The notes under the pieces were generated by a model. The model did not search any database, was not told where the DNA came from, and worked only from the letters and a program-made list of their open reading frames with translations. A stretch of 37,702 nt of DNA from IMG/VR virus record IMGVR_UViG_3300012931_000011, positions 1 to 37,702 of that record, one strand, 5' to 3'. Positions 16,899-25,964 of this stretch are shown here, in pieces; positions within the stretch are counted from its first letter, which is position 1; every line of letters begins with the position of its first letter. Source of the stretch: a virus. Made by a program: the position numbers and the translations under genes.

Positions 16899-18908
16899 CT
16901 ATCTAATCTGTTCAGAACCATTCTGATCAGTTTGAGGTTGTTCAACCATACGTTGCAACTGGATCAACTTACTAAGCTGATCTATGTCAACGGTATCTAA
17001 TTCCTTTAATGCTTTAGCTAAATTCAATAAAGCTAAATTATCATCTTTAATAGATGCTGCTTTTCGCTCTTCAGCTAACGCTTTATTTTCTGGTACACGA
17101 CTGAATCGTTCAAGACCAAGCCCTGTATTAGCAAGCGCCATAGCTTTATATTGTTCAGACCGTGATGCCATCTCTTGCGCTGCCAATTGGCTTTGTTGCT
17201 GCTGCATTTGTGATTCTTGCTGTTGTTGTTGTTGAATAGTTTCAATAATCTTAGTCTTGTTCTGTAAAGTAGCCGCTTCTAATAAGCTTTCAGCAGGTAT
17301 CGGTACCCCAGCATCACGAAGTTGCAACATCTGTGCGAATTGCATTTGTTTCTGCGTTTCAGTATCAAGACCAGCTTCAATAGCACAATGGTATTTACCA
17401 AATGCTTTCTTATAAAACAACGGTGCAGGATCTTGCCCTTCAAGGAAATTCTTTATCTTGCCTGGAGTATAATTAGATTGCACTGTATCCATAATAAGCT
17501 CACCAAGCAATTTTACCGATCTATCAAGCTTATCAAATAGAGGCTGTAACGTAATAAGCCCTGCACTTTGCCGTAAGAATGCTAAGATCCCAGCTTTATC
17601 GTCAACTGCTGCTCCTAACAACTCTTCGTTTATACCTGAAACTGCATTAAGTTCTTTGGCAAATGTCTCTTGCATTTGGAAGAATGACGGTGGTACTTGC
17701 GGCGGCTGTATAGGAACAATATCAGTTATATTAGCATCTTTTTTAATAGGTATTATACGTCCTTGCCCTGTTTGGAATAGATGCTTAACGTCTATTACAG
17801 CATTCTCCTTGAAAATAAATCCTGAATTTACTTGAGATTCAAGCATATCTGCGCTTAGAATAATTCTTCTATTGAGCAGCATTTGGGGGTCTCTCAAACT
17901 CCTGCATATTCCTTGGATACGTGAATAAAAATAAGGCATAGCAGGATTATAATAGCCGGTCACTGCTACAAATGGCATCTTGTCGATACCTAGCGGTTGA
18001 GGTCCATCATAAAAGACTTTGTTTTGGATCAATATAGCTAGACGTACAGTAGGGACATTCTGTTCTATAACCGTTACTTGTGGATAGTTCTGTATAAAGA
18101 ACTCTATGTCAGTATCAGATTGTGAAGTAATCTCAGTAGCTTCTCCAGTCACTCTATCTACTAATAATTTTTGTTTACGCCAATCTCGATAATAATATTC
18201 ATCATAAGCTAAACGGTTCTGCTGCGTCTGCCCATATGCTTCAGGCATATATTGGAAACGCCCATCTTTGCTTGTCCCCTGGTTGCCTGGAAGGCCCATA
18301 ATCTCTTCATAATATTGTGGTAATAGTGAAGCTGCTGCTGTATGAGAAAGATAGCTCCTACGCCATATAAATGAACAATCTGACAGGTCATCCTTGCGGA
18401 AGTACGGATCTAGAAAGAAGCAGTTATATGGTAAAAAGTCGACTTTTATATCTCCAGAAAGTGGATCATGAGTATAGTCCATATAGACATGTAATAAGCT
18501 CATTCCTGTAACACAAGCACCATGATGAAATGCTTCTGATACAGATTCGTAAATTCCTTCACGTCTAAATATATTTAATAATATCTTAGTCCATTGATCT
18601 GCCGTTTGCTGGTCAGCGTTCTCTTCAGGTACAACAACTATCGTTTTCCTATGATGACGTTGATATCCTGAAACCATATTGCAAAGTGGCCTAACTCTAT
18701 TAAAGTACCAAGAACCACGATTGTTATTAGGTAACATTTGATTGAGGTCAGCCATCAAGGCAACATCACCTGCTTCTAAACGACTATCCAGACAGGCTTC
18801 AGTCCACCAGGTTTGCCAAATAGACTGACTAGCAGAGTAATCTGAATCAATTTTTTTCTTAATTGTATTAAAACCATCGCTCAGCGATTCCGGTCCACGC
18901 ATTAACAT
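16899..18908 (-). CDS. Portal protein (669 aa) with Gln-rich C-terminal tail
   Basis: Size and position: it is the first gene of the head module, upstream of scaffold and capsid. The poly-Q coiled C-terminus (QQQQQQESQMQQQQSQ) is a barrel-like extension. No motif-level proof. Confidence 0.7.
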   Translation of the reverse strand: MLMRGPESLSDGFNTIKKKIDSDYSASQSIWQTWWTEACLDSRLEAGDVALMADLNQMLPNNNRGSWYFNRVRPLCNMVSGYQRHHRKTIVVVPEENADQQTADQWTKILLNIFRREGIYESVSEAFHHGACVTGMSLLHVYMDYTHDPLSGDIKVDFLPYNCFFLDPYFRKDDLSDCSFIWRRSYLSHTAAASLLPQYYEEIMGLPGNQGTSKDGRFQYMPEAYGQTQQNRLAYDEYYYRDWRKQKLLVDRVTGEATEITSQSDTDIEFFIQNYPQVTVIEQNVPTVRLAILIQNKVFYDGPQPLGIDKMPFVAVTGYYNPAMPYFYSRIQGICRSLRDPQMLLNRRIILSADMLESQVNSGFIFKENAVIDVKHLFQTGQGRIIPIKKDANITDIVPIQPPQVPPSFFQMQETFAKELNAVSGINEELLGAAVDDKAGILAFLRQSAGLITLQPLFDKLDRSVKLLGELIMDTVQSNYTPGKIKNFLEGQDPAPLFYKKAFGKYHCAIEAGLDTETQKQMQFAQMLQLRDAGVPIPAESLLEAATLQNKTKIIETIQQQQQQESQMQQQQSQLAAQEMASRSEQYKAMALANTGLGLERFSRVPENKALAEERKAASIKDDNLALLNLAKALKELDTVDIDQLSKLIQLQRMVEQPQTDQNGSEQIR

Positions 18909-19199
18909 GTACTACTCTCCTATTTAAGTTCTCCTTCTCATTGTAGAATAAGGTTGTTAGAATACAAACAAATAAACACAAATTTTTATTTTTGGTCATT
19001 GTTAACCCCATATCGGTATTTAGCAAGCGCTTCTGTCGAATACCGAATAGGGCCATCAATGCTAATAACAATTAACTCTGTTTTAGATACACTTTATGCA
19101 TTAACTAAAAAAGACCATTTACTATATCGGCAAAATTATTTAAGATTGGGAACGCAGTGTTGATGGAAACTGTTTATTATAGTTCCCATCTCAAATTTT

Positions 19200-19238
19200 G
19201 GGATAAAGATGAGGCTAAGCATCTTTATCCCTTTTTAT
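19200..19238 (+). terminator. Plus-sense intrinsic-terminator-like hairpin (12-bp stem GGGATAAAGATG/CATCTTTATCCC, then TTTTTAT)
   Basis: Read directly. There is no convincing plus-strand gene upstream. Confidence 0.4.
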
Positions 19239-19306
19239 GAAGCAATTTGTACAACTATTGAATTATTGAATGAACAGGAATATATTGGAATAGAACTAAC
19301 CAAAGA

Positions 19307-19346
19307 ACCATCAACTGTCTCCAGCTAGTTGGTGGTTTTTATATTT
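19307..19346. terminator. Hairpin ACCATCAACT-10 nt-AGTTGGTGGT followed by TTTTATATTT
   Basis: Read directly at the 3' end of gene 19345..19713. Folds slightly better in the plus sense, where one pair is a G.U. Confidence 0.4.
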
Positions 19347-19713
19347 AAAACAAATCTACCTCACCTTTTCTACCGCAAGCGATATCAAGTTCTTTCTTAA
19401 ATTCAGGAATTTCATTAGATTCCGATGAATCTATATATTCTATCAGGAGCATCTTGGAATTCTTATCCATAAAAAATATAGTCTTTATAGTTTCGTTGTA
19501 AGCACCAAAAAGCTGTGTCATATTATCAGTTCTTTTATGAGAAAACTTATAAACACCCATATTCTTTACGCAAATGCAAAAGATATTATTCCTTAGCGAA
19601 TCATCATCATAGAATTTGTCATCTAGAAATGTATAACAAAGCATGAAATGAACACTATAGACAGGAATATATAAGAACAGCAACAACAATGAAAGCATCT
19701 TCAACCTTTTCAT
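19345..19713 (-). CDS. Secreted or membrane-anchored hypothetical protein
   Basis: N-terminal MKRLKMLSLLLLFLYIPVYS signal-like segment. SD atAGGGAGaaagatATG. Confidence 0.55.
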   Translation of the reverse strand: MKRLKMLSLLLLFLYIPVYSVHFMLCYTFLDDKFYDDDSLRNNIFCICVKNMGVYKFSHKRTDNMTQLFGAYNETIKTIFFMDKNSKMLLIEYIDSSESNEIPEFKKELDIACGRKGEVDLF

Positions 19714-19874
19714 ATCTTTCTCCCTATAAAAAAGCCGATGTTACCACCGGCTCGAAAGGTTATTCTCTATAAACACTGGTACAGAGAAAACAAAAATCGA
19801 TCAACAACGTCAATAGTATATCTAAGCATAATGAATATATCTATTGTTCATTGTTACATATTAGCTAACAGATC

Positions 19875-19889
19875 GTGACAAAATGTCAC
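19875..19889. promoter_or_regulatory. Operator-like palindrome GTGACAAAATGTCAC (core GACAAAATGTC)
   Basis: Read directly in the 233-bp gap upstream of 19345..19713. Confidence 0.45.
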
Positions 19890-19922
19890 AGGTTGAGGTT
19901 GGCGATTCTTCGTTTCATCAAG

Positions 19923-19943
19923 TTGTCGACATTTTGTCGACAA
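19923..19943. promoter_or_regulatory. Operator-like palindrome TTGTCGACATTTTGTCGACAA (core GACATTTTGTC)
   Basis: Read directly. Same 11-mer core as 19875-19889, in the opposite orientation. Confidence 0.45.
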
Positions 19944-19946
19944 GTC

Positions 19947-20351
19947 TTAATAAATCTTTTCAATATCTGCATTGCAACGCGACATATCTAAAGCAACAAA
20001 AAAAGTTAATGTGAAAAATATTAATATTGTAATAAAAGGAAAGTCTATTTTTATGGCAGGACCATTAAACATAGGAAGAATTTTGGCAGTAATTAAAAAG
20101 CCTATAAGACCGCTAGGCACAGAAACAATAAAATCAATCTTGGAAAAGCACTTACTAAAACTAAAGCTTTCCATACAAGGAAACGCTTTTTCCCATAGCA
20201 AGAAAACAAAATGGAGTATGAGAAGATTATTCAAAACGTCGTATGTGCTTATATCCCTTCCTAAAAATTTAGCATTCATAATAACCGTTGGTATAAACAT
20301 AACAACAATATAAGGCAATTTGCTGAGATAATAAGCCAAATATTTATTCAT
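19947..20351 (-). CDS. Multi-pass membrane protein (134 aa)
   Basis: Several hydrophobic stretches (IVVMFIPTVIM, LLILHFVFLL, LIGFLITAKIL, ITILIFFTLTFFVAL). Confidence 0.6.
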   Translation of the reverse strand: MNKYLAYYLSKLPYIVVMFIPTVIMNAKFLGRDISTYDVLNNLLILHFVFLLWEKAFPCMESFSFSKCFSKIDFIVSVPSGLIGFLITAKILPMFNGPAIKIDFPFITILIFFTLTFFVALDMSRCNADIEKIY

Positions 20352-20384
20352 GATTTTCCTAATTAATCAGATTGTCGTGATACC

Positions 20385-20415
20385 ACAAAAAACAAAAGGC
20401 GGTCTTATGACCGCC
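20385..20415 (-). terminator. Rho-independent terminator GGCGGTC-auaa-GACCGCC followed by UUUUGUUUUUU
   Basis: Read on the minus strand after the stop at 20433. Confidence 0.6.
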
Positions 20416-20432
20416 AAAAATTAAAACTTAGA

Positions 20433-20894
20433 CTATGGAGTTGGAGACGCGGTCGCTGCTGCTGTAGCATATGCTGTTGCTGCTGTTCCCGCTGTAGCAA
20501 CACTACATGCAGAACTAAATCCAGCGCCTGGACCTGCTACAACAGTGACACCAAAAAGCGTTCCTACTGCTGCAACACCTGTTAATGTAAAACCTGCTAT
20601 GCAAACAATTGAACCTAATACAGGACCACCACCGAATCCAGGAACCTTATGTCTTAAAATATAGTCACCATTATCTAATTTTGTAGCTCTAATAGTACAG
20701 CCACTGGCCAAGAAGGAACGTAGTTGATGAATATCCATTTCACGTAATTCAGAATCGACATCATAAGGTTTAACATCATGCAATTGCACGCCATCATATA
20801 CCTTAAAATCAACCATTTTAACTTTTAATTTAGATGACATGCCTAAACATGTTAGCGAACTTGCCAAGATGAGAAGTGATAGAAGTTTTTTCAT
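20433..20894 (-). CDS. Secreted protein with a Gly/Ala-rich glycine-zipper-like C-terminal membrane segment
   Basis: ATG at 20894 preceded by GAGGTaattatt. MKKLLSLLILASSLTCLG signal peptide. C-terminus GGGPVLGSIVCIAGFTLTGVAAVGTLFGVTVVAGPGAG. Confidence 0.6.
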   Translation of the reverse strand: MKKLLSLLILASSLTCLGMSSKLKVKMVDFKVYDGVQLHDVKPYDVDSELREMDIHQLRSFLASGCTIRATKLDNGDYILRHKVPGFGGGPVLGSIVCIAGFTLTGVAAVGTLFGVTVVAGPGAGFSSACSVATAGTAATAYATAAATASPTP

Positions 20895-21131
20895 AATAAT
20901 TACCTCAAAATTAACAATTAATAACAATAAATATCATCTGCACATTATATTAACTCATTCGGCACCTCTTTCGCATTTATAGTAGACTTTCGATTAATCT
21001 ATAAAGCAATGGCAGAATGTCAATATTGTCATAATGTTATTTTTATAAAGAAATAATATTACTTATAGTATAAAAAGAATTGTGCAAGCAGTAATGGCTC
21101 TCAAATGTTTACATAATATCAATTATCAGTC

Positions 21132-21920
21132 TCAGTAAGTATCGATATCTAAGTCACGCAATGAAATAAATGGATTACTCGAACCTGTTATTTTAGGTAG
21201 TTTCCCGTCCCACTTCTCTATGCGTTTGAGTTCTACCAGTTCTTTTGTAACAGAACTCTTTTTTACATGTAATGCATAAGCTTCTGCATCAGCACGTGTC
21301 TTTATTTGTTGGGACTCTTCTGTTATCTTTACGGTCAAATTCTTAGCTGTCTTAGCGCTTTGCTCTGCTATCTGCTTCTCTTCTACTGAATGCATAAACT
21401 CTTTTGAAAAATCTAAGTGTACAAAGTTAAAATCAATAAATTCTATATAGACTGGCACTAATCTTTCTTTAAGTTCATCAAAAACCAATTGTTTTGCCGT
21501 ATGGCGGGATATAATCAGATCTTCAGCTGTGAACTTAGCTACTATAGCTTTGATCGTTTCTTGAGCAAATGGATTGATAATAACATTTTCAAATTCACTA
21601 CCAACACATTTATATATATTTATCGCATCAGTAATACGATAATTGATAGCGACCTCTACTGATACTGTCTGTAAATCTTTAGTAAGCCCAATAGTATCGA
21701 TTATTGCTTTATTGATCTGGTTATTGATAGCTACTACTTTATCTATAAAAGGAAGTGCGAAATATGTTCCAGGTTCTGAACAAGCTCTTTTAATAGCACC
21801 CATACGCATCTGTATCTTTGTTTCACCAGGATGCACTATGAACCACATTCTAGATAAAAAAAACAGCACAAATGCAATCGCTATAGTAACCATTAGCATT
21901 TTAATCGTATTAGTAACCAT
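21132..21920 (-). CDS. SPFH/Band-7 (prohibitin-like) membrane protein
   Basis: N-terminal TM, then FIVHPGETKIQMRMGAI...PGTYFALPFIDKVV...TKDLQTVSVEVAINYRITD, then a C-terminal coiled coil. This is the canonical SPFH layout. Confidence 0.85.
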   Translation of the reverse strand: MVTNTIKMLMVTIAIAFVLFFLSRMWFIVHPGETKIQMRMGAIKRACSEPGTYFALPFIDKVVAINNQINKAIIDTIGLTKDLQTVSVEVAINYRITDAINIYKCVGSEFENVIINPFAQETIKAIVAKFTAEDLIISRHTAKQLVFDELKERLVPVYIEFIDFNFVHLDFSKEFMHSVEEKQIAEQSAKTAKNLTVKITEESQQIKTRADAEAYALHVKKSSVTKELVELKRIEKWDGKLPKITGSSNPFISLRDLDIDTY

Positions 21921-21937
21921 GTTTCATCCTACAAGTA

Positions 21938-22693
21938 TTAATTTACTTTGTTTATATCATCATACAGTTTATCCATGTCAAGATAACCGTTCTCATCAAT
22001 ATAATTTGAATTCTCCTTTAATCCTCTTACATCAGACATAGTCTTTTCGTAGCACTTTTCGAGCTTACTATACATATCTTTTAAATTTTTTAAATGTATA
22101 ACAAAATCTTCTTTCGCTTCTTCTGTATCATACCCTTCTAACTCTTCTAATAGGGGATAAATAGAAACTGTTTTATCAAAAATATCAAAATAATGAGGTA
22201 GAATTATATATATAATTCTTTGAGAAAATGAAATTTGAGATAACGAACGTTCTAGTATAGCCATAGTGCACAGACTAAACTCGAATAAATTTTGATGGGA
22301 CACTGCACCAAGATCTAAAAAAATAAATTTTAATTTTTTATAATCTTCATATTTCGTAGCTGAGCATTGGTCAACAATATCTTTATGCGCAGAAAGATTG
22401 GCTAATATGTAAGATTCTTTCAAGGAATTAAAAACTGTTGCAAAAGGTTCCGATTCCTTTGTGACAACATATTGTCTAAGCACAGCTAACATTTCATTTT
22501 CATCTAACTTAGCGCTTGCGCTAATACTATAAGAAACAGAGCGAAAAAAAGAAACTATTTTCCTGGTATTCTTTTGCTCATTATCCAAGCCTAAAGCCCC
22601 AGATAAAACATCTAACATTAAAAAATTAGCTATAACTGATTCAACATCTTTAATCTGTCTAATACAAAGTTTTTTTAAATTTACTTTTTCCAT
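21938..22693 (-). CDS. Helical hypothetical protein (251 aa) co-operonic with the SPFH gene
   Basis: 17-nt gap to the SPFH start. I recognised no motif. Confidence 0.6.
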   Translation of the reverse strand: MEKVNLKKLCIRQIKDVESVIANFLMLDVLSGALGLDNEQKNTRKIVSFFRSVSYSISASAKLDENEMLAVLRQYVVTKESEPFATVFNSLKESYILANLSAHKDIVDQCSATKYEDYKKLKFIFLDLGAVSHQNLFEFSLCTMAILERSLSQISFSQRIIYIILPHYFDIFDKTVSIYPLLEELEGYDTEEAKEDFVIHLKNLKDMYSKLEKCYEKTMSDVRGLKENSNYIDENGYLDMDKLYDDINKVN

Positions 22694-22776
22694 ATAATCC
22701 CTATATTTCTTTCCTTTAAATGATTCTTATATTAATATAAATCAATATTAATTTATTAAAAGGTTTAAGGGGTAAC

Positions 22777-23292
22777 ATGAAAATTATCGAAGCTATGAAG
22801 AAAATTAAGGATTTGCAACGAAAAGCAGAAGATATACGCGATAAAATAGGGAAATATTGTGCTGATCTTGATTGTGAAACAGCTGTATATCCAGATCAAC
22901 GCAATCAGATATCTCTGTGGGAACAAGCTCATAGCGATATAATAAAAGAAATTGGTAAATTACGTTTTTCTATTCAAAAAACAAATGTTCTTACTTTAGT
23001 CAGAATTGAATTAGATGGTAAATTTATAGAAAAGAGTATTGCTGAATGGATACATCGCCGTAAAGATTTAGCTTCTCTAGAAGAATCAGCTTGGTCAAAG
23101 TTAAACGATAAAGGATATAAGGAAGCTTCATCTTATAAGGTTACACCAAATTCACCTGATCAGATTGTGAGAAGGCGATTATATTTTGACCCAAAAGAAC
23201 GAGATAATAAAATTGAATTATATCGATCAGAACCGTCAAAAATAGATTCTACTTTAGAAGTAATTAACGCAATAACTGATATTATAGAATAA
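22777..23292 (+). CDS. DIP1984/septicolysin-like family protein (tentative)
   Basis: Its 171-aa size, N-terminal MKIIEAMKKIKDLQRK, central I(Q)KTN...G...SIAEWIHRRKDL and C-terminal ...VINAITDIIE match my recollection of the family consensus. SD ttAAGGGGtaacATG. Confidence 0.5.
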   Translation: MKIIEAMKKIKDLQRKAEDIRDKIGKYCADLDCETAVYPDQRNQISLWEQAHSDIIKEIGKLRFSIQKTNVLTLVRIELDGKFIEKSIAEWIHRRKDLASLEESAWSKLNDKGYKEASSYKVTPNSPDQIVRRRLYFDPKERDNKIELYRSEPSKIDSTLEVINAITDIIE

Positions 23293-23355
23293 ATAATATT
23301 GTCTTTGAAATAGCATTGATATACAGACATAAAAACCGAAAATATTCACTAAAAT

Positions 23356-23428
23356 AAAACAATAGCTCAGCGGTTAGAGCATCAGCCTGTTAAGCTGAAG
23401 GTTATTGGTTCAAATCCAATTTGTTTTT
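23356..23428 (+). tRNA. trnN: tRNA-Asn (GUU) with an almost all-A/U acceptor stem
   Basis: Manual cloverleaf: AAAACAA / UA / GCUC-AGCGGUUA-GAGC / A / UCAGC-CUGUUAA-GCUGA / AGGUU / AUUGG-UUCAAAU-CCAAU / UUGUUUU / U. No encoded CCA. Confidence 0.75.
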
Positions 23429-23662
23429 CAAGAATAGCCTTTATAACGCTAGTCTTTTGAAATCTATCAAGATTAAAGTTTGAAGATTTAATTTTTAAGA
23501 TTTAAAAGCGGCAAGTTAATAAGTAGCAAGAGAGCAAGGAGATGCCGATATTATCATCGGAATGACCTAGAAAAGTTTTTTTGTATATTTATATGGTCTT
23601 TCTAGGGTTCCTGTATAGGCAATGCTATCGCGAATAAGATAATAATTGGTGTTACAATTTAC

Positions 23663-23845
23663 CTAATTTGACGTTACAATTAGCGATATATTCTCGACAC
23701 AATCATTATTGAGTTCTAATCGTTGATCGATAACTGCCTCTGCAAATACACTTTTCCATAAATCATGATTTTCTTTATAAGAAAGATAAATTCTTTCTTT
23801 AATCAATAAGGCCTTTTCCAAGGATCTTTTTTTACATTTTGTCAT
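23663..23845 (-). CDS. Hypothetical 60-aa ORF between the two tRNA genes
   Basis: ORF only, with a weak SD. Its first codons contain GACAAAATGT, a 10/11 match to the operator core. Confidence 0.35.
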   Translation of the reverse strand: MTKCKKRSLEKALLIKERIYLSYKENHDLWKSVFAEAVIDQRLELNNDCVENISLIVTSN

Positions 23846-23878
23846 GATAAGATTTCCAATAAAACAGATATTTTCATT

Positions 23879-23953
23879 TGGCTCCCCGGCTAGGATTCGA
23901 ACCTAGGACCACTCGCTTAACAGGCGATCGCTCTACCACTGAGCTACCGGGGA
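23879..23953 (-). tRNA. trnN: tRNA-Asn (GUU), canonical bacterial type with encoded CCA
   Basis: Manual cloverleaf: UCCCCGG / UA / GCUC-AGUGGUA-GAGC / G / AUCGC-CUGUUAA-GCGAG / UGGUC / CUAGG-UUCGAAU-CCUAG / CCGGGGA / G / CCA. Confidence 0.9.
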
Positions 23954-23967
23954 TTATGCTTAGTATT

Positions 23968-24114
23968 TCATATAGGAGAATACCGAATTAAAATTAATTT
24001 GATAGCTTCTTCAAAATCATAGTTTGTATCAACAAGCGCCTTTTTGCAAATATGTATAGGCATATCAGTAATTTTATGCATATAAAAGGCAATATCTATT
24101 ATATCGTGGATCAT
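23968..24114 (-). CDS. Possible 48-aa ORF with an EF-Ts N-terminal/UBA-like motif
   Basis: ITDMPIHICKKALVDTNYDFEEAIKLI compares with E. coli EF-Ts [25 protein letters not shown] (from memory). No good SD. Below the size cut-off of the ORF track. Confidence 0.3.
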   Translation of the reverse strand: MIHDIIDIAFYMHKITDMPIHICKKALVDTNYDFEEAIKLILIRYSPI

Positions 24115-24259
24115 AGGCAAAAACCCCATGCCTGAGGAAATTGTGCAATGAGCTAGACATGGGGCCTTTCCAAAAAAGGATCTTTTTTAGGGATCTTATT
24201 TTCAATTTTATCATGAAACGATAATAAGAAAATAACTTGTTTGCGATAACGCTAATAAG

Positions 24260-25651
24260 CTACCTATATCTATCATAACGAGGATCAAAATCAAAAAAAG
24301 AAGGGATTCTATTACCATACAACGCCTCAGCTTTAGCCCTTTCGAATTCTTCTGGTGATAACCCTGCTTTTGTTTTGTGTAACGCCTGACACAGATAACG
24401 TAAAGCATCAGCACCATTGCTTGCCCAGTTATGTATAGGCTTATTAATAAACATTTGCTTGCTATCGTCCCATTCTTTTCTATAGTTCTCTAAAGCATCG
24501 ATCAGTCTTTTACACTTATTCTGATCTATCCATAGCTTATTGAAATGAGTCCATACATTCTCTATCCCATCCATTACACCAGTCTGTTCTAAAATAACAA
24601 ACTCAATACCCAACTGATGCGCTTTCTCATAACGGCTAACAGCACCACCGCCCCATTCGCGTACTTTTATGTCATGCGGAGCAAAGTGCGACCCATATTT
24701 GTATTCTTTGTCTTGTAACACACGAGCATAATGGTCAAGCCCTACGCCAGTATTCGAATAATAATCTATTACACGAATAAATGTTCCAGAATCTACAGTT
24801 TGAAAGAATATTATTGAAGTGGCGTCATTTACTCCTATATCCCAAGAAGTATATGTTAAAAGACCAGGATCATAAGGAACAGAAGTTATTTGATTGTTTA
24901 GACGAAGCTTATCAAGATAACGACCATAGATAGAACCTTCAATACCGCGCTCATACGATATCTCATATTCTTGAAGATAGAGCCCTTCGTCCATTTCAGC
25001 GCGTTCTTTATCGAGTACTTCGTCAGGGATATGATGAATCAAGGATGCTGGTTGTTCTACAACAAGCCAGTCAGGCAATTGCTGCGCTATTTTGTGTAAT
25101 TGATATTGATGGTTCTTACCACGTGGAGTGCCATTAACTATACACCAACCACCATTAGCAGCAAGAATAGGTCTAATAAAGCTAAATATATCTGAAGGCA
25201 TAAGGCTGTATTCGCTTAAAACAACGCCATAAGGATTGGTTCCTACGATAGAGGTATCATACGTATCACCACCAATTACCTGCAAAATAGAGTCATTTTT
25301 AAAGCGTATTTTCATATCTGTATGGTTAATAGCAGCTACCATTTCTGGAGGGACAAAATCTAAGAACTTTGTACCATCGATACTGATCGCATCAAAAATG
25401 CATTTTCTTGCCTGCTTGTAATTTGGGAGGACATAAAATACTAAGCATGTTTTCTTTAAGCATTGTCTTATAGCTAAGTTCCAACAAAGGATATCTTTAC
25501 CTGAACGTCGTGAAGCTACCAATAAGACACGTTTATATTGCCCTTTATCAATAGCATCCCATACTTTCTTCTGGTACCATCGTAATTTGAACTTATTGAG
25601 AACTATTTCCGTCTGTATATCCACTTTCTCTTCTTTCAAAATGGTTACCAT
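24260..25651 (-). CDS. terL: Terminase large subunit
   Basis: Walker-A-like VASRRSGKD. C-terminal RNase-H-like nuclease block TSWDIGVNDATSIIFFQ. Typical size of 463 aa. Confidence 0.85.
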   Translation of the reverse strand: MVTILKEEKVDIQTEIVLNKFKLRWYQKKVWDAIDKGQYKRVLLVASRRSGKDILCWNLAIRQCLKKTCLVFYVLPNYKQARKCIFDAISIDGTKFLDFVPPEMVAAINHTDMKIRFKNDSILQVIGGDTYDTSIVGTNPYGVVLSEYSLMPSDIFSFIRPILAANGGWCIVNGTPRGKNHQYQLHKIAQQLPDWLVVEQPASLIHHIPDEVLDKERAEMDEGLYLQEYEISYERGIEGSIYGRYLDKLRLNNQITSVPYDPGLLTYTSWDIGVNDATSIIFFQTVDSGTFIRVIDYYSNTGVGLDHYARVLQDKEYKYGSHFAPHDIKVREWGGGAVSRYEKAHQLGIEFVILEQTGVMDGIENVWTHFNKLWIDQNKCKRLIDALENYRKEWDDSKQMFINKPIHNWASNGADALRYLCQALHKTKAGLSPEEFERAKAEALYGNRIPSFFDFDPRYDRYR

Positions 25652-25964
25652 CACAGTTGTTAAATCTGCCGCCCCAACGATTGGCTGGATCTAACTGTTC
25701 CCATTTAATTCCTAAAGGCTCATAGAATTCATTTTTAATAAGATATTCATATTTATCGCTAAATAAATGGATATCTATAGCTAATCTTTTGCAATGAAGT
25801 GAATCTTTAATACCTGTTTTATTTTTGAAGTTCCAGAGCGCCTGCTCTTTTGTACGGAAAGCTTCCCCCAACGTATAAATAAGCCCTAAAGAATCAGCAT
25901 AATCAAGGAGCCGTTTGACATCTTTCGCAAAGAGATGTTGTTGGTTAACTATCATGCTTCTCAC
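25593..25964 (-). CDS. Peptidase M15 (VanY/L-Ala-D-Glu peptidase-like) endolysin
   Basis: Zn-ligand pattern SLHCKRLAIDIHLF ... WGGRF...DGNHFE. Confidence 0.8.
   Translation of the reverse strand: MRSMIVNQQHLFAKDVKRLLDYADSLGLIYTLGEAFRTKEQALWNFKNKTGIKDSLHCKRLAIDIHLFSDKYEYLIKNEFYEPLGIKWEQLDPANRWGGRFNNCDGNHFERRESGYTDGNSSQ

What the first reader, a model, noticed from the sequence alone, without database searches (positions are those of the whole stretch)
19200..24259. 5-kb accessory island inserted between terminase and portal
TerL (24260..25651) and portal (16899..18908) are usually adjacent. Here they are separated by about 5.3 kb of DNA, about 5 kb of which is accessory cargo:
- two tRNA-Asn genes
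- two tiny ORFs
- a divergent DIP1984-like gene
- an SPFH operon
- three secreted or membrane proteins

The cargo has its own terminators (20385-20415) and operator-like palindromes. None of it is needed for particle formation. It is the best place in this genome to look for host-manipulation, exclusion or counter-defence functions.
Basis: inference. Interest (0 to 1): 0.6.

Follow-up and report, generated by a model that had tools for sequence, protein, structure and literature searches.

The report
Mosaic accessory cluster between terminase and portal
In this uncultivated 37.7-kb wetland phage, about 4.2 kb of extra genes sits between two packaging genes that are nearly adjacent in related phages; it is a patchwork of separately mobile modules, including a small protein gene paired with a folded RNA that carries a tRNA, and a membrane-scaffold gene.

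Summary
TerL (24260-25654) and a P22-type portal (16899-18908) lie 5,351 bp apart. In 37 co-oriented IMG/VR relatives (TerL 61-70% identical) the gap is 33-1,545 bp, median 454.

Ten complete relatives lack both the SPFH gene and the DIP1984-like gene, so "accessory" is supported. Three corrections follow.

1. The 122-aa gene next to the portal is not cargo. It is the diverged counterpart of a secreted-protein gene found at this junction in 19 relatives. The true insert is about 19,947-24,130.
2. The block is a mosaic, not one island. SPFH, the DIP1984-like gene and the 164-aa secreted protein each recur in relatives at other positions.
3. The plus-strand tRNA-Asn lies inside a roughly 320-nt conserved structured RNA that follows the DIP1984-like gene.
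   - A model built without the window hits it at E = 3.6e-12.
   - The main helix covaries.
   - The gene-RNA pair holds in 56 of 61 loci.
   - This scan has reported the same pair on other DNA.

The minus-strand tRNA-Asn looks bacterial (60% GC, encoded CCA). The 251-aa partner of SPFH has no relative among 1.84 billion representative proteins. No function has been tested and the host is unresolved.

The parts
16899..18908 (-). Portal protein. Conserved right flank of the junction.
   Evidence: Pfam P22_portal 1.8e-68 and phrog_156 8e-74. It is 61-74% identical in 43 relatives.
18909..19344 (.). 436-bp non-coding spacer with a 12-bp hairpin at 19200-19231. Relatives have about 30-60 bp here. 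Role unknown.
   Evidence: It is not a decayed copy of the 122-aa gene: the local alignment score falls within the shuffle range and the family profile gives no hit.
19345..19713 (-). 122-aa protein with an N-terminal signal or TM segment. It is the diverged counterpart of the roughly 120-aa secreted protein that lies between TerL and portal in 19 relatives, so it is not part of the insert.
   Evidence: A profile of 18 relatives' gap genes hits only this ORF among 530 six-frame ORFs (E = 7.2e-5, full length). Hydrophobic segment at residues 4-30.
19875..19943 (.). Two inverted exact copies of the 11-mer GACAAAATGTC upstream of the 122-aa gene. Operator-like; binding not tested.
   Evidence: A 10/11 copy overlaps the start of the 60-aa ORF at 23833-23843.
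19947..20351 (-). 134-aa protein with three to four hydrophobic segments, a predicted membrane protein. No relative was found in any fetched locus.
   Evidence: Hydropathy. No Pfam, PHROG, NCBIfam or PADLOC hit. No tblastn hit in about 210 loci.
20398..20415 (-). Intrinsic-terminator-like hairpin (7 bp, 6 G-C) followed by a T run, 18 nt after the 164-aa gene.
20433..20894 (-). Secreted or membrane protein. It is 153 aa from the ATG at 20894, or 164 aa from an upstream TTG. It has a signal peptide, a roughly 85-aa domain and a Gly/Ala/Thr-rich hydrophobic tail.
   Evidence: Weak homologues (30-33% identity, E = 1e-7 to 3e-5) with the same design occur in four close relatives, on the opposite strand at another variable site.
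21132..21920 (-). Prohibitin-type SPFH/Band 7 protein of 262 aa with one N-terminal TM anchor.
   Evidence: Band_7 3.8e-27. phrog_200 1.3e-34. Best solved relatives are prohibitins at 5.8e-26, with HflK/C at about 1e-6. There are 933 homologues, the best 62% identical. TM segment at residues 1-31.
21938..22693 (-). 251-aa all-helical soluble ORFan, ending 18 nt upstream of the SPFH gene on the same strand.
   Evidence: It found only itself in the word-indexed search of 5.8 billion proteins and in a full phmmer scan of 1.84 billion representatives. AF2 pLDDT is 42.5. The ESM Atlas model has pLDDT 0.40.
22777..23292 (+). 171-aa DIP1984-like protein, transcribed against the late operon.
   Evidence: NF038048 at 26.1 bits, E = 8e-6, below the cut-off of 70. 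AF2 pLDDT 92. The only significant PDB fold match is 3kdq, with probability 1.00 and TM 0.53-0.58. There are 1,124 homologues at 56-71% identity.
23310..23628 (+). Conserved structured RNA that follows the DIP1984-like gene. In order it holds:
- a 5' motif at 23323-23342;
- the embedded tRNA-Asn at 23356-23429;
- an AAG tract with spacing of about 7 nt at 23469-23538;
- a hairpin, 23545-23549 with 23556-23560;
- a long-range helix, 23566-23573 with 23599-23606;
- an end hairpin at 23610-23619.

The outer limits are approximate.
   Evidence: Model R1, built from 31 other loci, hits 23521-23621(+) at 41.6 bits, E = 3.6e-12; the next best hit has E = 0.38. It hits 56 of 61 loci of this gene family, always on the gene's strand. 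The helix covaries. AAG spacing is 7, 7, 14, 9, 7, 8, 7, 8.
23356..23429 (+). tRNA-Asn(GTT), 37% G+C, with an acceptor stem of A-U pairs apart from one C-G, U at the discriminator position and no encoded CCA. It lies inside the RNA above.
   Evidence: ARAGORN. Rfam tRNA 75.3 bits. The sequence was read directly.
23663..23845 (-). 60-aa ORF of unknown status, downstream of the minus-strand tRNA. An operator-like 10/11 site overlaps its start.
   Evidence: No family hit.
23879..23953 (-). tRNA-Asn(GTT) of bacterial type: 60% G+C, G discriminator and encoded CCA.
   Evidence: ARAGORN. Rfam tRNA 69.8 bits. It matches 68 of 72 positions of a tRNA-Asn in a 0.7-Mb MAG labelled uncultured Gammaproteobacteria, and is 84-95% identical in that MAG's relatives.
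24074..24137 (-). Possible scar. A 32-nt imperfect copy of the TerL 3' end lies at 24092-24123 and would encode ..YDPRYNRY (TerL ends ..FDPRYDRYR). A small terminator-like hairpin lies at 24124-24137.
   Evidence: Direct repeat D7, 81% identity. 23-nt matches (87-91%) to the TerL 3' ends of six relatives, at the homologous position. Translation. Hairpin. This is suggestive only.
24260..25654 (-). Large terminase subunit. Conserved left flank of the junction.
   Evidence: phrog_2 1.1e-28 and phrog_2472 2e-41. It is 61-70% identical in 45 IMG/VR relatives.

Best explanation
The DNA between TerL and portal is a variable accessory-gene site that has filled up in this lineage. The ancestral state is TerL, then one small secreted-protein gene (here the 122-aa gene), then portal.

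About 4.2 kb was added between TerL and that gene. I infer that it arrived piecemeal, by recombination with other phages of the wider group and with bacteria. There are at least four units.

1. A plus-strand cassette: a DIP1984-like protein followed by a roughly 320-nt structured RNA.
   - The RNA carries a tRNA-Asn and a tract of AAG triplets spaced about 7 nt apart.
   - Most likely (inferred) the two form a protein-RNA particle. An oligomer of the protein would read the repeated triplets, and the tRNA would either be cut out or act as a tRNA-like arm.
2. A two-gene unit: an orphan helical protein plus a prohibitin-type SPFH protein.
   - By analogy with prohibitin and HflK/C, the SPFH protein should form a membrane-anchored ring.
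   - Such a ring would corral or modulate a host membrane protein such as FtsH during infection (inferred).
3. Two envelope proteins (164 aa and 134 aa), plausibly acting on the cell surface, for example in superinfection exclusion (inferred).
4. A bacterial-type tRNA-Asn, probably captured from a bacterium, that would help to read the phage's frequent Asn codons (inferred).

What is shown: the anatomy, absence from close relatives, recurrence of the units elsewhere, and conservation and covariation of the RNA. What each unit does is inferred.
For: Junction:
- The gap is 5,351 bp here, against 33-1,545 bp (median 454) in 37 relatives.
- 19 relatives hold one conserved gene of about 120 aa there, and its profile hits only the 122-aa ORF.

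Accessory status:
- 0 of 10 complete relatives have Band_7 or a homologue of the 171-aa gene.
- G+C is lower across the block.

Mosaic origin:
- More distant relatives (TerL 37-45% identical) carry SPFH at 46-56% identity, either before TerL or right after it. L054 has a 4,190-bp gap.
- They carry the 171-aa gene either between TerL and portal (L143/L144, L185) or upstream of TerL.
- Homologues of the 164-aa protein sit at another site in four close relatives.
- The 171-aa family has no conserved protein neighbour in 70 loci.

RNA:
- A tRNA lies within 1.5 kb downstream on the same strand in 33 of 70 loci, and upstream in 1.
- R1 hits the window at E = 3.6e-12 and 56 of 61 loci, 25 of which were not used to build the model.
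- 91.5% of helix cells are paired, against 80.8% in shuffles. There are 95 double-change cells against 25.7 (0 of 500 shuffles reach this). Slid controls give 31-60%.

SPFH:
- It is prohibitin-like with an N-terminal TM segment.
- It falls in a clade that mixes phage copies with proteins named Candidatus Dependentiae.

tRNA:
- The minus-strand tRNA is 95% identical to a bacterial tRNA-Asn.
- Asn makes up 6.2% of core codons.
Against: - No function was tested and there are no expression data. No RNA sequencing run is listed as holding this DNA.
- Promoter-like sites are not enriched, so the division into transcription units rests on strand, spacing and one good terminator.
- The order and number of acquisition events cannot be told from present data. 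The only candidate scar is short.
- The plus-strand tRNA has U rather than G at the discriminator position, so it may not be charged with Asn. That weakens the view that it supplies codon reading, and leaves its role open.
- The 251-aa ORFan has no relatives, so its link to SPFH rests on adjacency in this one genome.
- No PADLOC model matches any gene in the block.
- The 134-aa gene and the small ORFs lack any comparative support.
Confidence: 0.8

Rival explanations
1. A single mobile island, for example an integrative element that targeted a tRNA-Asn gene, was inserted in one event between TerL and portal.
For: Two tRNA-Asn genes lie near the TerL-proximal edge. An imperfect 32-nt repeat of the TerL 3' end could be a junction scar. 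G+C is uniformly low across the block.
Against: - No integrase, transposase or recombinase was found in the block by Pfam, PHROGs or NCBIfam.
- No direct repeats flank the block.
- The two tRNAs are only about 72% alike over 43 nt, they converge, and both are complete.
- The component genes occur separately, in other positions, in relatives.
- One tRNA belongs to the RNA cassette.
Confidence: 0.08
2. The block is ancestral to the group and was lost repeatedly, so close relatives with short gaps are deletion derivatives.
For: SPFH and the DIP1984-like gene recur near TerL in more distant relatives of the same wider group, sometimes inside the TerL-portal gap.
Against: - All 37 co-oriented close relatives have short gaps, and 10 of 10 complete ones lack both genes.
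- In distant relatives the positions and orientations of the genes differ.
- The window's SPFH is not the nearest relative of the other copies taken from IMG/VR loci, apart from L054's clade (quick tree only).
Confidence: 0.07
3. The block is an assembly chimera. Foreign DNA was joined into a phage contig, so the island does not exist in nature.
For: The record is a metagenome assembly. G+C drops across the block.
Against: - The record is a complete genome with direct terminal repeats.
- Both junctions lie in ordinary intergenic DNA, next to intact TerL and portal genes.
- The same kinds of cargo occur at the same junction in other phage contigs.
- Two runs hold all sampled words of the stretch, but both may be the source sample, so they give no independent support.
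Confidence: 0.03

Closest known systems
Phage morons and hypervariable accessory-gene hotspots between conserved genes (lambdoid morons; the P2/P4 hotspots described by Rousset et al. 2022; named from my own knowledge)
   Same: Conserved flanks surround content that varies between close relatives. G+C is lower. At least one unit has its own terminator. The genes are not needed for the particle, since relatives lack them.
   Different: The position, between TerL and portal inside the packaging/late operon, is unusual. One unit runs against the operon. No known defence or anti-defence gene was recognised.
DIP1984 of Corynebacterium diphtheriae (PDB 3kdq; NCBIfam NF038048; function unknown)
   Same: It is the only significant fold match of the 171-aa protein (probability 1.00, TM 0.53-0.58). 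The NCBIfam alignment is end to end.
   Different: Sequence identity is 15%. The score of 26 bits is far below the family cut-off of 70. Pfam gave no hit on this protein. The phage protein is tied to a downstream RNA; whether that also holds for DIP1984 itself was not examined here.
The DIP1984-like gene plus heptad-repeat RNA pair, reported by this scan on other phage and bacterial DNA (notes e1-5665017, e1-5344020, e1-5525465, e1-854213). I found no published description.
   Same: A small helical protein gene is followed on the same strand by an RNA of 300-500 nt. That RNA has units spaced about 7 nt apart, tRNA or tRNA-like arms and covarying helices. All of these features were seen here.
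   Different: The subfamily here has no tblastn match in 50,697 GenBank phage records. I could not verify the link to the T5-type members by sequence. No Rfam family other than tRNA reaches its threshold.
Prohibitin and HflK/HflC SPFH ring complexes (PDB 9urz, 8rrh, 7vhp), and the SPFH genes annotated in phages (Faecalibacterium phage FP_Toutatis, Escherichia phage Skarpretter, Burkholderia phage CSP3)
   Same: It has a Band_7 domain, an N-terminal TM anchor and a helical C-terminal part that aligns with prohibitin over residues 33-236. SPFH genes occur in 318 GenBank phage records and in more than 400 IMG/VR contigs.
   Different: It is at most 35% identical to any GenBank phage copy. The nearest named relatives are from Candidatus Dependentiae, at 52-59% identity. 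There is a single gene here rather than an HflK/HflC or PHB1/PHB2 pair. Its partner is an orphan, not NfeD. No phage SPFH protein has a demonstrated role that I could find.
TRAP bound to the trp leader (Bacillus): a protein ring that reads spaced triplet repeats (from my own knowledge; note e1-5344020 draws the same analogy)
   Same: About nine AAG triplets spaced 7-9 nt apart in a single-stranded-looking tract next to a small protein gene.
   Different: No sequence or fold relation to TRAP was found. Binding is untested. The RNA here is a free-standing, closed RNA with a tRNA, not an mRNA leader.

Membership tests
SPFH / Band 7 superfamily, prohibitin-like | Band_7 domain scoring above Pfam's gathering score | tested here: met
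   95.9 bits against a cut-off of 23.6.
SPFH / Band 7 superfamily, prohibitin-like | N-terminal membrane anchor | tested here: met
   One hydrophobic segment at residues 1-31, mean hydropathy 2.29.
SPFH / Band 7 superfamily, prohibitin-like | Closer to prohibitins than to HflK/C, stomatin or flotillin | tested here: met
   PDB prohibitins score 5.8e-26 to 2e-18, HflK/C 3e-7 to 3e-5 and stomatin 9e-4.
SPFH / Band 7 superfamily, prohibitin-like | Assembly into a multimeric membrane ring or cage | not testable with these tools
   Needs expression and microscopy.
DIP1984 family (NCBIfam NF038048 / Pfam PF20935) | Score at or above the curated cut-off | tested here: not met
   26.1 bits against a cut-off of 70. 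Pfam gave no hit even at E up to 10. Some homologues carry a precomputed PF20935 tag.
DIP1984 family (NCBIfam NF038048 / Pfam PF20935) | Same fold as the solved member, 3kdq | tested here: met
   Foldseek E = 4.6e-4, probability 1.00, TM 0.53/0.58. It is the only hit below 1e-3. The model has pLDDT 92.
DIP1984-like gene plus downstream structured RNA (provisional pair from this scan) | Conserved RNA directly downstream on the gene's strand | tested here: met
   R1, built without the window, gives 41.6 bits and E = 3.6e-12 at 23521-23621(+). It hits 56 of 61 loci.
DIP1984-like gene plus downstream structured RNA (provisional pair from this scan) | Helices supported by covariation | tested here: met
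   Seven of 11 pairs of the main helix change on both sides. No shuffle out of 500 reaches the observed score. The outer closing helix was not resolved.
DIP1984-like gene plus downstream structured RNA (provisional pair from this scan) | Tract of units spaced about 7 nt apart, and a tRNA or tRNA-like arm | tested here: met
   AAG spacing of 7, 7, 14, 9, 7, 8, 7, 8. The tRNA lies at 23356-23429. 33 of 70 loci have a tRNA downstream.
DIP1984-like gene plus downstream structured RNA (provisional pair from this scan) | RNA is made, and is bound by the protein | not testable with these tools
   No RNA sequencing run is listed as holding this DNA.
tRNA-Asn | tRNA cloverleaf above the Rfam gathering score, with a GUU anticodon | tested here: met
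   75.3 and 69.8 bits against a threshold of 29. Both have anticodon gtt.
tRNA-Asn | G73 discriminator, an identity element for bacterial AsnRS (from my own knowledge of E. coli tRNA-Asn) | tested here: inconclusive
   The minus-strand gene has G73 followed by CCA. The plus-strand gene has U73 and no CCA. The host's rules are unknown.
Integrative genomic island | Integrase or recombinase, and flanking direct repeats | tested here: not met
   No such domain was found in any ORF of the block. No flanking repeats were found.
Known anti-phage defence systems (PADLOC) | Match to any PADLOC protein model | tested here: not met
   No hits at E up to 1 for nine proteins.
Phage moron / variable accessory hotspot | Presence or absence varies between close relatives while the flanks stay conserved | tested here: met
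Phage moron / variable accessory hotspot | Own promoter and terminator for each unit | tested here: inconclusive
   One good terminator lies after the 164-aa gene. Promoter-like sites are not above chance.

The most novel reading that the evidence does not exclude
The plus-strand cassette may be a working ribonucleoprotein. An oligomer of the DIP1984-like protein would bind the AAG tract of a closed RNA of about 320 nt and present its embedded tRNA-Asn-like arm. Together with the neighbouring bacterial-type tRNA-Asn, this would form a kit aimed at tRNA-Asn, for example a decoy or a spare against a host nuclease that cuts tRNA anticodons. The variety of tRNA identities embedded in other members, including suppressor-like ones, would then reflect different host defences.
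Probability: 0.1. Interest if true: 0.8.

Novelty: new member of a known kind. Interest (0 to 1): 0.5.

Why it matters
It shows that the TerL-portal junction, usually taken as fixed, is a cargo site in this group of uncultivated short-tailed phages. The same few modules move in and out of it.

Two of the cargo items are worth separate follow-up:
- **The protein-RNA pair.** A small protein of unknown function is tied to a conserved RNA carrying a tRNA. This gives a testable handle on the uncharacterised DIP1984 family and on why phages carry odd tRNAs.
- **The prohibitin-type scaffold gene.** It is shared between these phages and Candidatus Dependentiae bacteria. That may hint at the host, and at a phage use of membrane scaffolds that nobody has tested.

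Tried and rejected
- **Near-identical phages.** megablast against 50,697 GenBank phage records found none.
- **Context look-ups.** I could not see the surroundings of the closest SPFH and DIP1984-like homologues from metagenomes.
- **Host from the tRNA.**
  - An exact 72-nt search found nothing.
  - A relaxed pattern found one MAG.
  - That MAG's relatives have a similar tRNA-Asn but mostly lack a close prohibitin. The tRNA clue and the SPFH clue therefore point to different lineages, and the host stays open.
- **251-aa ORFan.** It found only itself in two sequence searches. It has no family hit at E up to 10. The ESM Atlas gave only unnamed look-alikes. The AF2 model is too poor to search with.
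- **Spacer as a pseudogene.** The idea that 18909-19344 is a decayed duplicate of the 122-aa gene is rejected.
- **Automatic RNA structure.** RNAalifold on the MAFFT alignment found almost nothing, because the alignment was out of register. The helix was found by anchored pairing and counted on a model-based alignment.
- **Closing helix of the RNA.** My test did not separate real from shuffled sequence (7.8 against 7.0 bp), so the RNA ends are approximate.
- **Rfam.** No family other than tRNA matched in the window region at E up to 1, or in 11 related loci at gathering scores.
- **GenBank phages, 171-aa protein.** No match, so the link to phage T5 stated in earlier notes was not verified.
- **Sequencing runs.** No RNA holder is listed. 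The two DNA holders may be the source sample, so no reads were laid.
- **SPFH tree.** Only the quick tree finished. It is used only for the coarse grouping.

Full report
**What the window is**

The window is a complete virus record of 37,702 bp with direct terminal repeats. It was assembled from a wetland metagenome. It has no near-identical relative among GenBank phages.

Its genes include:
- a P22-type portal and a large terminase;
- an M15-type endolysin;
- RusA, ERF and SSB.

TerL resembles terminases of short-tailed phages such as the pelagiphages at 35-41% identity.

**Check of the observation**

The portal (16899-18908) and TerL (24260-25654) are both on the minus strand, 5,351 bp apart.

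- **Two tRNA-Asn(GTT) genes.** Both are strong tRNA matches, at 75.3 and 69.8 bits.
- **An SPFH gene.** It sits behind a 251-aa ORF.
- **A 171-aa plus-strand ORF.** It aligns end to end with NCBIfam DIP1984_fam, but below the cut-off.
- **Three ORFs with hydrophobic segments**.
- **A good terminator-like hairpin** at 20398-20415.
- **Two exact inverted copies of an 11-mer** at 19877-19887 and 19928-19938.

G+C falls to 29-35% across the block, against 37-39% in the flanks. Promoter-like sites are no commoner than in shuffled sequence.

**Is the block accessory?**

A scan of IMG/VR with TerL returned 47 related loci, 45 of them with TerL 61-70% identical. tblastn with the window's proteins gave these results:
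- In 37 loci TerL and portal are co-oriented, 33-1,545 bp apart, median 454 bp.
- In six loci the portal is inverted and lies 27-150 bp from TerL.
- None carries SPFH or the 251-aa, 171-aa or 134-aa genes within 10 kb of TerL.

I also searched ten (near-)complete relatives as whole records. None has a Band_7 gene or a homologue of the 171-aa gene. The accessory reading stands.

**First correction: the 122-aa gene is not cargo**

Most relatives with gaps of about 450 bp hold one co-oriented ORF of 113-133 aa with a signal peptide. Nineteen of these ORFs form one family. A profile of 18 of them, searched against all 530 six-frame ORFs of the window, hits only the 122-aa ORF. The match is full length, E = 7.2e-5. 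This gene is the diverged counterpart of the ancestral junction gene.

The added DNA therefore lies between it and TerL, roughly 19,947-24,130.

At the TerL edge there is a 32-nt imperfect copy of the TerL 3' end (24092-24123). It would encode a C-terminus like TerL's own, and it matches the TerL ends of six relatives over 23 nt. It may be a recombination scar, but it is too short to be sure.

The 436-bp spacer between the 122-aa gene and the portal is unexplained. It is not a decayed copy of that gene.

**Second correction: a mosaic, not one island**

No ORF in the block has an integrase, transposase or recombinase domain, and no repeats flank it. The parts turn up separately elsewhere.

- **SPFH.** More distant members of the same phage group (TerL 37-45%, portal 46-54% identical) carry SPFH at 46-56% identity.
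  - In L054 it lies directly after TerL, within a 4,190-bp TerL-portal gap.
  - In L060 it lies directly before TerL.
  - In L056 and L058 it lies further upstream.
- **The 171-aa gene.** It lies between TerL and portal in L143/L144 and L185, and upstream of TerL in L146, L198 and L202.
- **The 164-aa protein.** Weak homologues with the same design occur in four close relatives. They are on the other strand, at a different variable site.

The junction is thus a recurrent landing place for a shared pool of modules.

**Third correction: one tRNA-Asn belongs to a protein-RNA cassette**

*The protein.* The 171-aa protein has 1,124 homologues at 56-71% identity, many on contigs of 35-42 kb. With 27 of them as the alignment, AlphaFold2 gives a confident model (pLDDT 92). 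Its only significant match among solved structures is 3kdq, the unknown-function protein of Corynebacterium diphtheriae (probability 1.00, TM 0.53-0.58). So "DIP1984-like" is right as a fold, although curated sequence thresholds are not met.

*Its neighbours.* I fetched 80 IMG/VR loci of this family. In the 70 loci where the gene was called as one ORF cluster:
- it has no conserved protein neighbour;
- 33 loci have a tRNA within 1.5 kb downstream on the same strand, usually 40-120 nt after the stop codon, and only one has a tRNA upstream;
- the tRNA identities differ widely and include odd anticodon loops and suppressor-like anticodons.

Reading the downstream sequences showed shared blocks before and after the tRNA.

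*The RNA model.* I aligned the 3' block of 31 loci without the window and built a sequence-only model, R1.
- In the window it gives one hit, at 23521-23621 on the plus strand: 41.6 bits, E = 3.6e-12. The next best hit has E = 0.38.
- It hits 56 of 61 loci of the family, always on the gene's strand. Twenty-five of those loci were not used to build it.

*Covariation.* On the model-based alignment I tested a long-range helix found by anchored pairing. In the window it is 23566-23573 with 23599-23606, extended by an AAGUU/AACUU pairing that the window itself lacks.
- 91.5% of cells are paired, against 80.8% in shuffles.
- There are 95 double-change cells, against 25.7 in shuffles.
- No shuffle out of 500 reaches these values.
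- Slid controls give 31-60% paired.

*Other features in the window.* Upstream of the helix is a tract of nine AAG triplets, mostly 7-8 nt apart. The shared 5' motif lies at 23323-23342, just before the tRNA. An outer closing helix (23310-23318 with 23620-23628) is plausible, but my test could not separate it from chance.

*Comparison with catalogues and earlier notes.* No Rfam family other than tRNA matches. Earlier notes of this scan describe the same kind of pair on other DNA: a DIP1984-like gene followed by a heptad-repeat RNA with tRNA-like arms. That lead made me look beyond the tRNA, and the features were then tested here independently. The stated link to phage T5 was not verified, because this subfamily has no match in GenBank phages.

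**The two tRNAs compared**

| Feature | Plus-strand tRNA (23356-23429) | Minus-strand tRNA (23879-23953) |
|---|---|---|
| G+C | 37% | 60% |
| Acceptor stem | A-U pairs apart from one C-G | G-C rich |
| Discriminator | U | G |
| Encoded CCA | no | yes |

The minus-strand tRNA matches 68 of 72 positions of a tRNA-Asn in a small MAG. It looks captured from a bacterium.

Asn makes up 6.2% of codons in the phage's core genes. A supply role is therefore plausible for the bacterial-type tRNA. It is doubtful for the embedded one.

**The SPFH unit**

The 262-aa protein has one N-terminal membrane segment and a Band_7 domain. It is closest to prohibitins among solved structures.

Its best relatives are 60-62% identical and unnamed. 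Named ones, at 52-59%, are from Candidatus Dependentiae. In a quick tree, copies from this phage group and the Dependentiae proteins share one well-supported clade, apart from other viral SPFH genes.

SPFH genes are common in phages. They occur in 318 GenBank records and more than 400 IMG/VR contigs, with annotations that range from prohibitin to protease. One paper discusses them only by analogy with HflK/C and lysogeny.

The 251-aa gene upstream is a true orphan. It is predicted all-helical at low confidence. Relatives that carry SPFH lack it.

**How it most likely works**

*Shown:*
- a variable junction;
- a lineage-specific mosaic of at least four units;
- one conserved gene-RNA pair with a covarying fold.

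*Inferred:*
- The DIP1984-like protein binds the repeated triplets of its RNA as an oligomer.
- The SPFH protein forms a membrane ring that acts on a host membrane protein such as FtsH.
- The two envelope proteins alter the cell surface.
- The bacterial-type tRNA supports translation.

None of these roles is tested. PADLOC recognises nothing in the block.

**Host**

The host is unresolved. The SPFH similarity points to Dependentiae. The tRNA similarity points to a lineage of small genomes that mostly lacks a close prohibitin.

**Verdict**

- As a whole, this is a new example of a known phenomenon: accessory genes gathering at a variable site.
- It sits at an unusual position, and it carries one module that deserves study in its own right.

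Noticed in passing
L034:2221-4413, L036:3624-5807, L037:3995-6178: In three relatives the TerL reading frame is interrupted near residue 434 by about 660 bp and then resumes. The two pieces overlap by about 40-50 residues. This could be an intron, an intein or a homing-endonuclease insertion.
   Followed up: no
L028-L032 and L040 (e.g. L030:4469-7993): In six relatives the portal gene is inverted relative to TerL, so the two diverge from a spacer of 27-150 bp. That is a different rearrangement at the same junction.
   Followed up: no
L025:5007-6282: One relative's TerL-portal gap holds a 250-aa Cys-rich ORF whose C-terminal part looks like an HNH-type homing endonuclease, judged by eye from the motif.
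   Followed up: no
L141:4862-4935 region; L202:2406-2478 region; L140, L152, L163, L186: Some tRNAs placed behind homologues of the 171-aa gene have suppressor-like anticodons (tta, tca). Others have anticodon loops that ARAGORN cannot name. They may be tRNA-like arms rather than decoding tRNAs.
   Followed up: partly
window:23833-23843: A 10/11 copy of the operator-like 11-mer overlaps the start of the 60-aa ORF. It lies within a 28-nt stretch that is 75% complementary to 19859-19886. One regulator might therefore control both the 122-aa gene and this ORF.
   Followed up: partly
window:24092-24123: An imperfect 32-nt copy of the TerL 3' end lies 137 nt downstream of the real stop codon. It is a possible recombination scar.
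   Followed up: partly
window:19200-19231: A perfect 12-bp hairpin sits in the unusually long (436 bp) spacer before the portal gene. Relatives have only about 30-60 bp here.
   Followed up: partly
L174:171-284, L201:2107-2209, L213:5875-5980: In three loci the conserved RNA block lies upstream of the DIP1984-like gene rather than downstream. The order of the pair is therefore not fixed.
   Followed up: no
window:21132-21920 and proteins P0053, P0065, P0088, P0115: The prohibitin-type SPFH clade is shared between this phage group and Candidatus Dependentiae bacteria, which live inside protists. This may be a clue to the host.
   Followed up: partly
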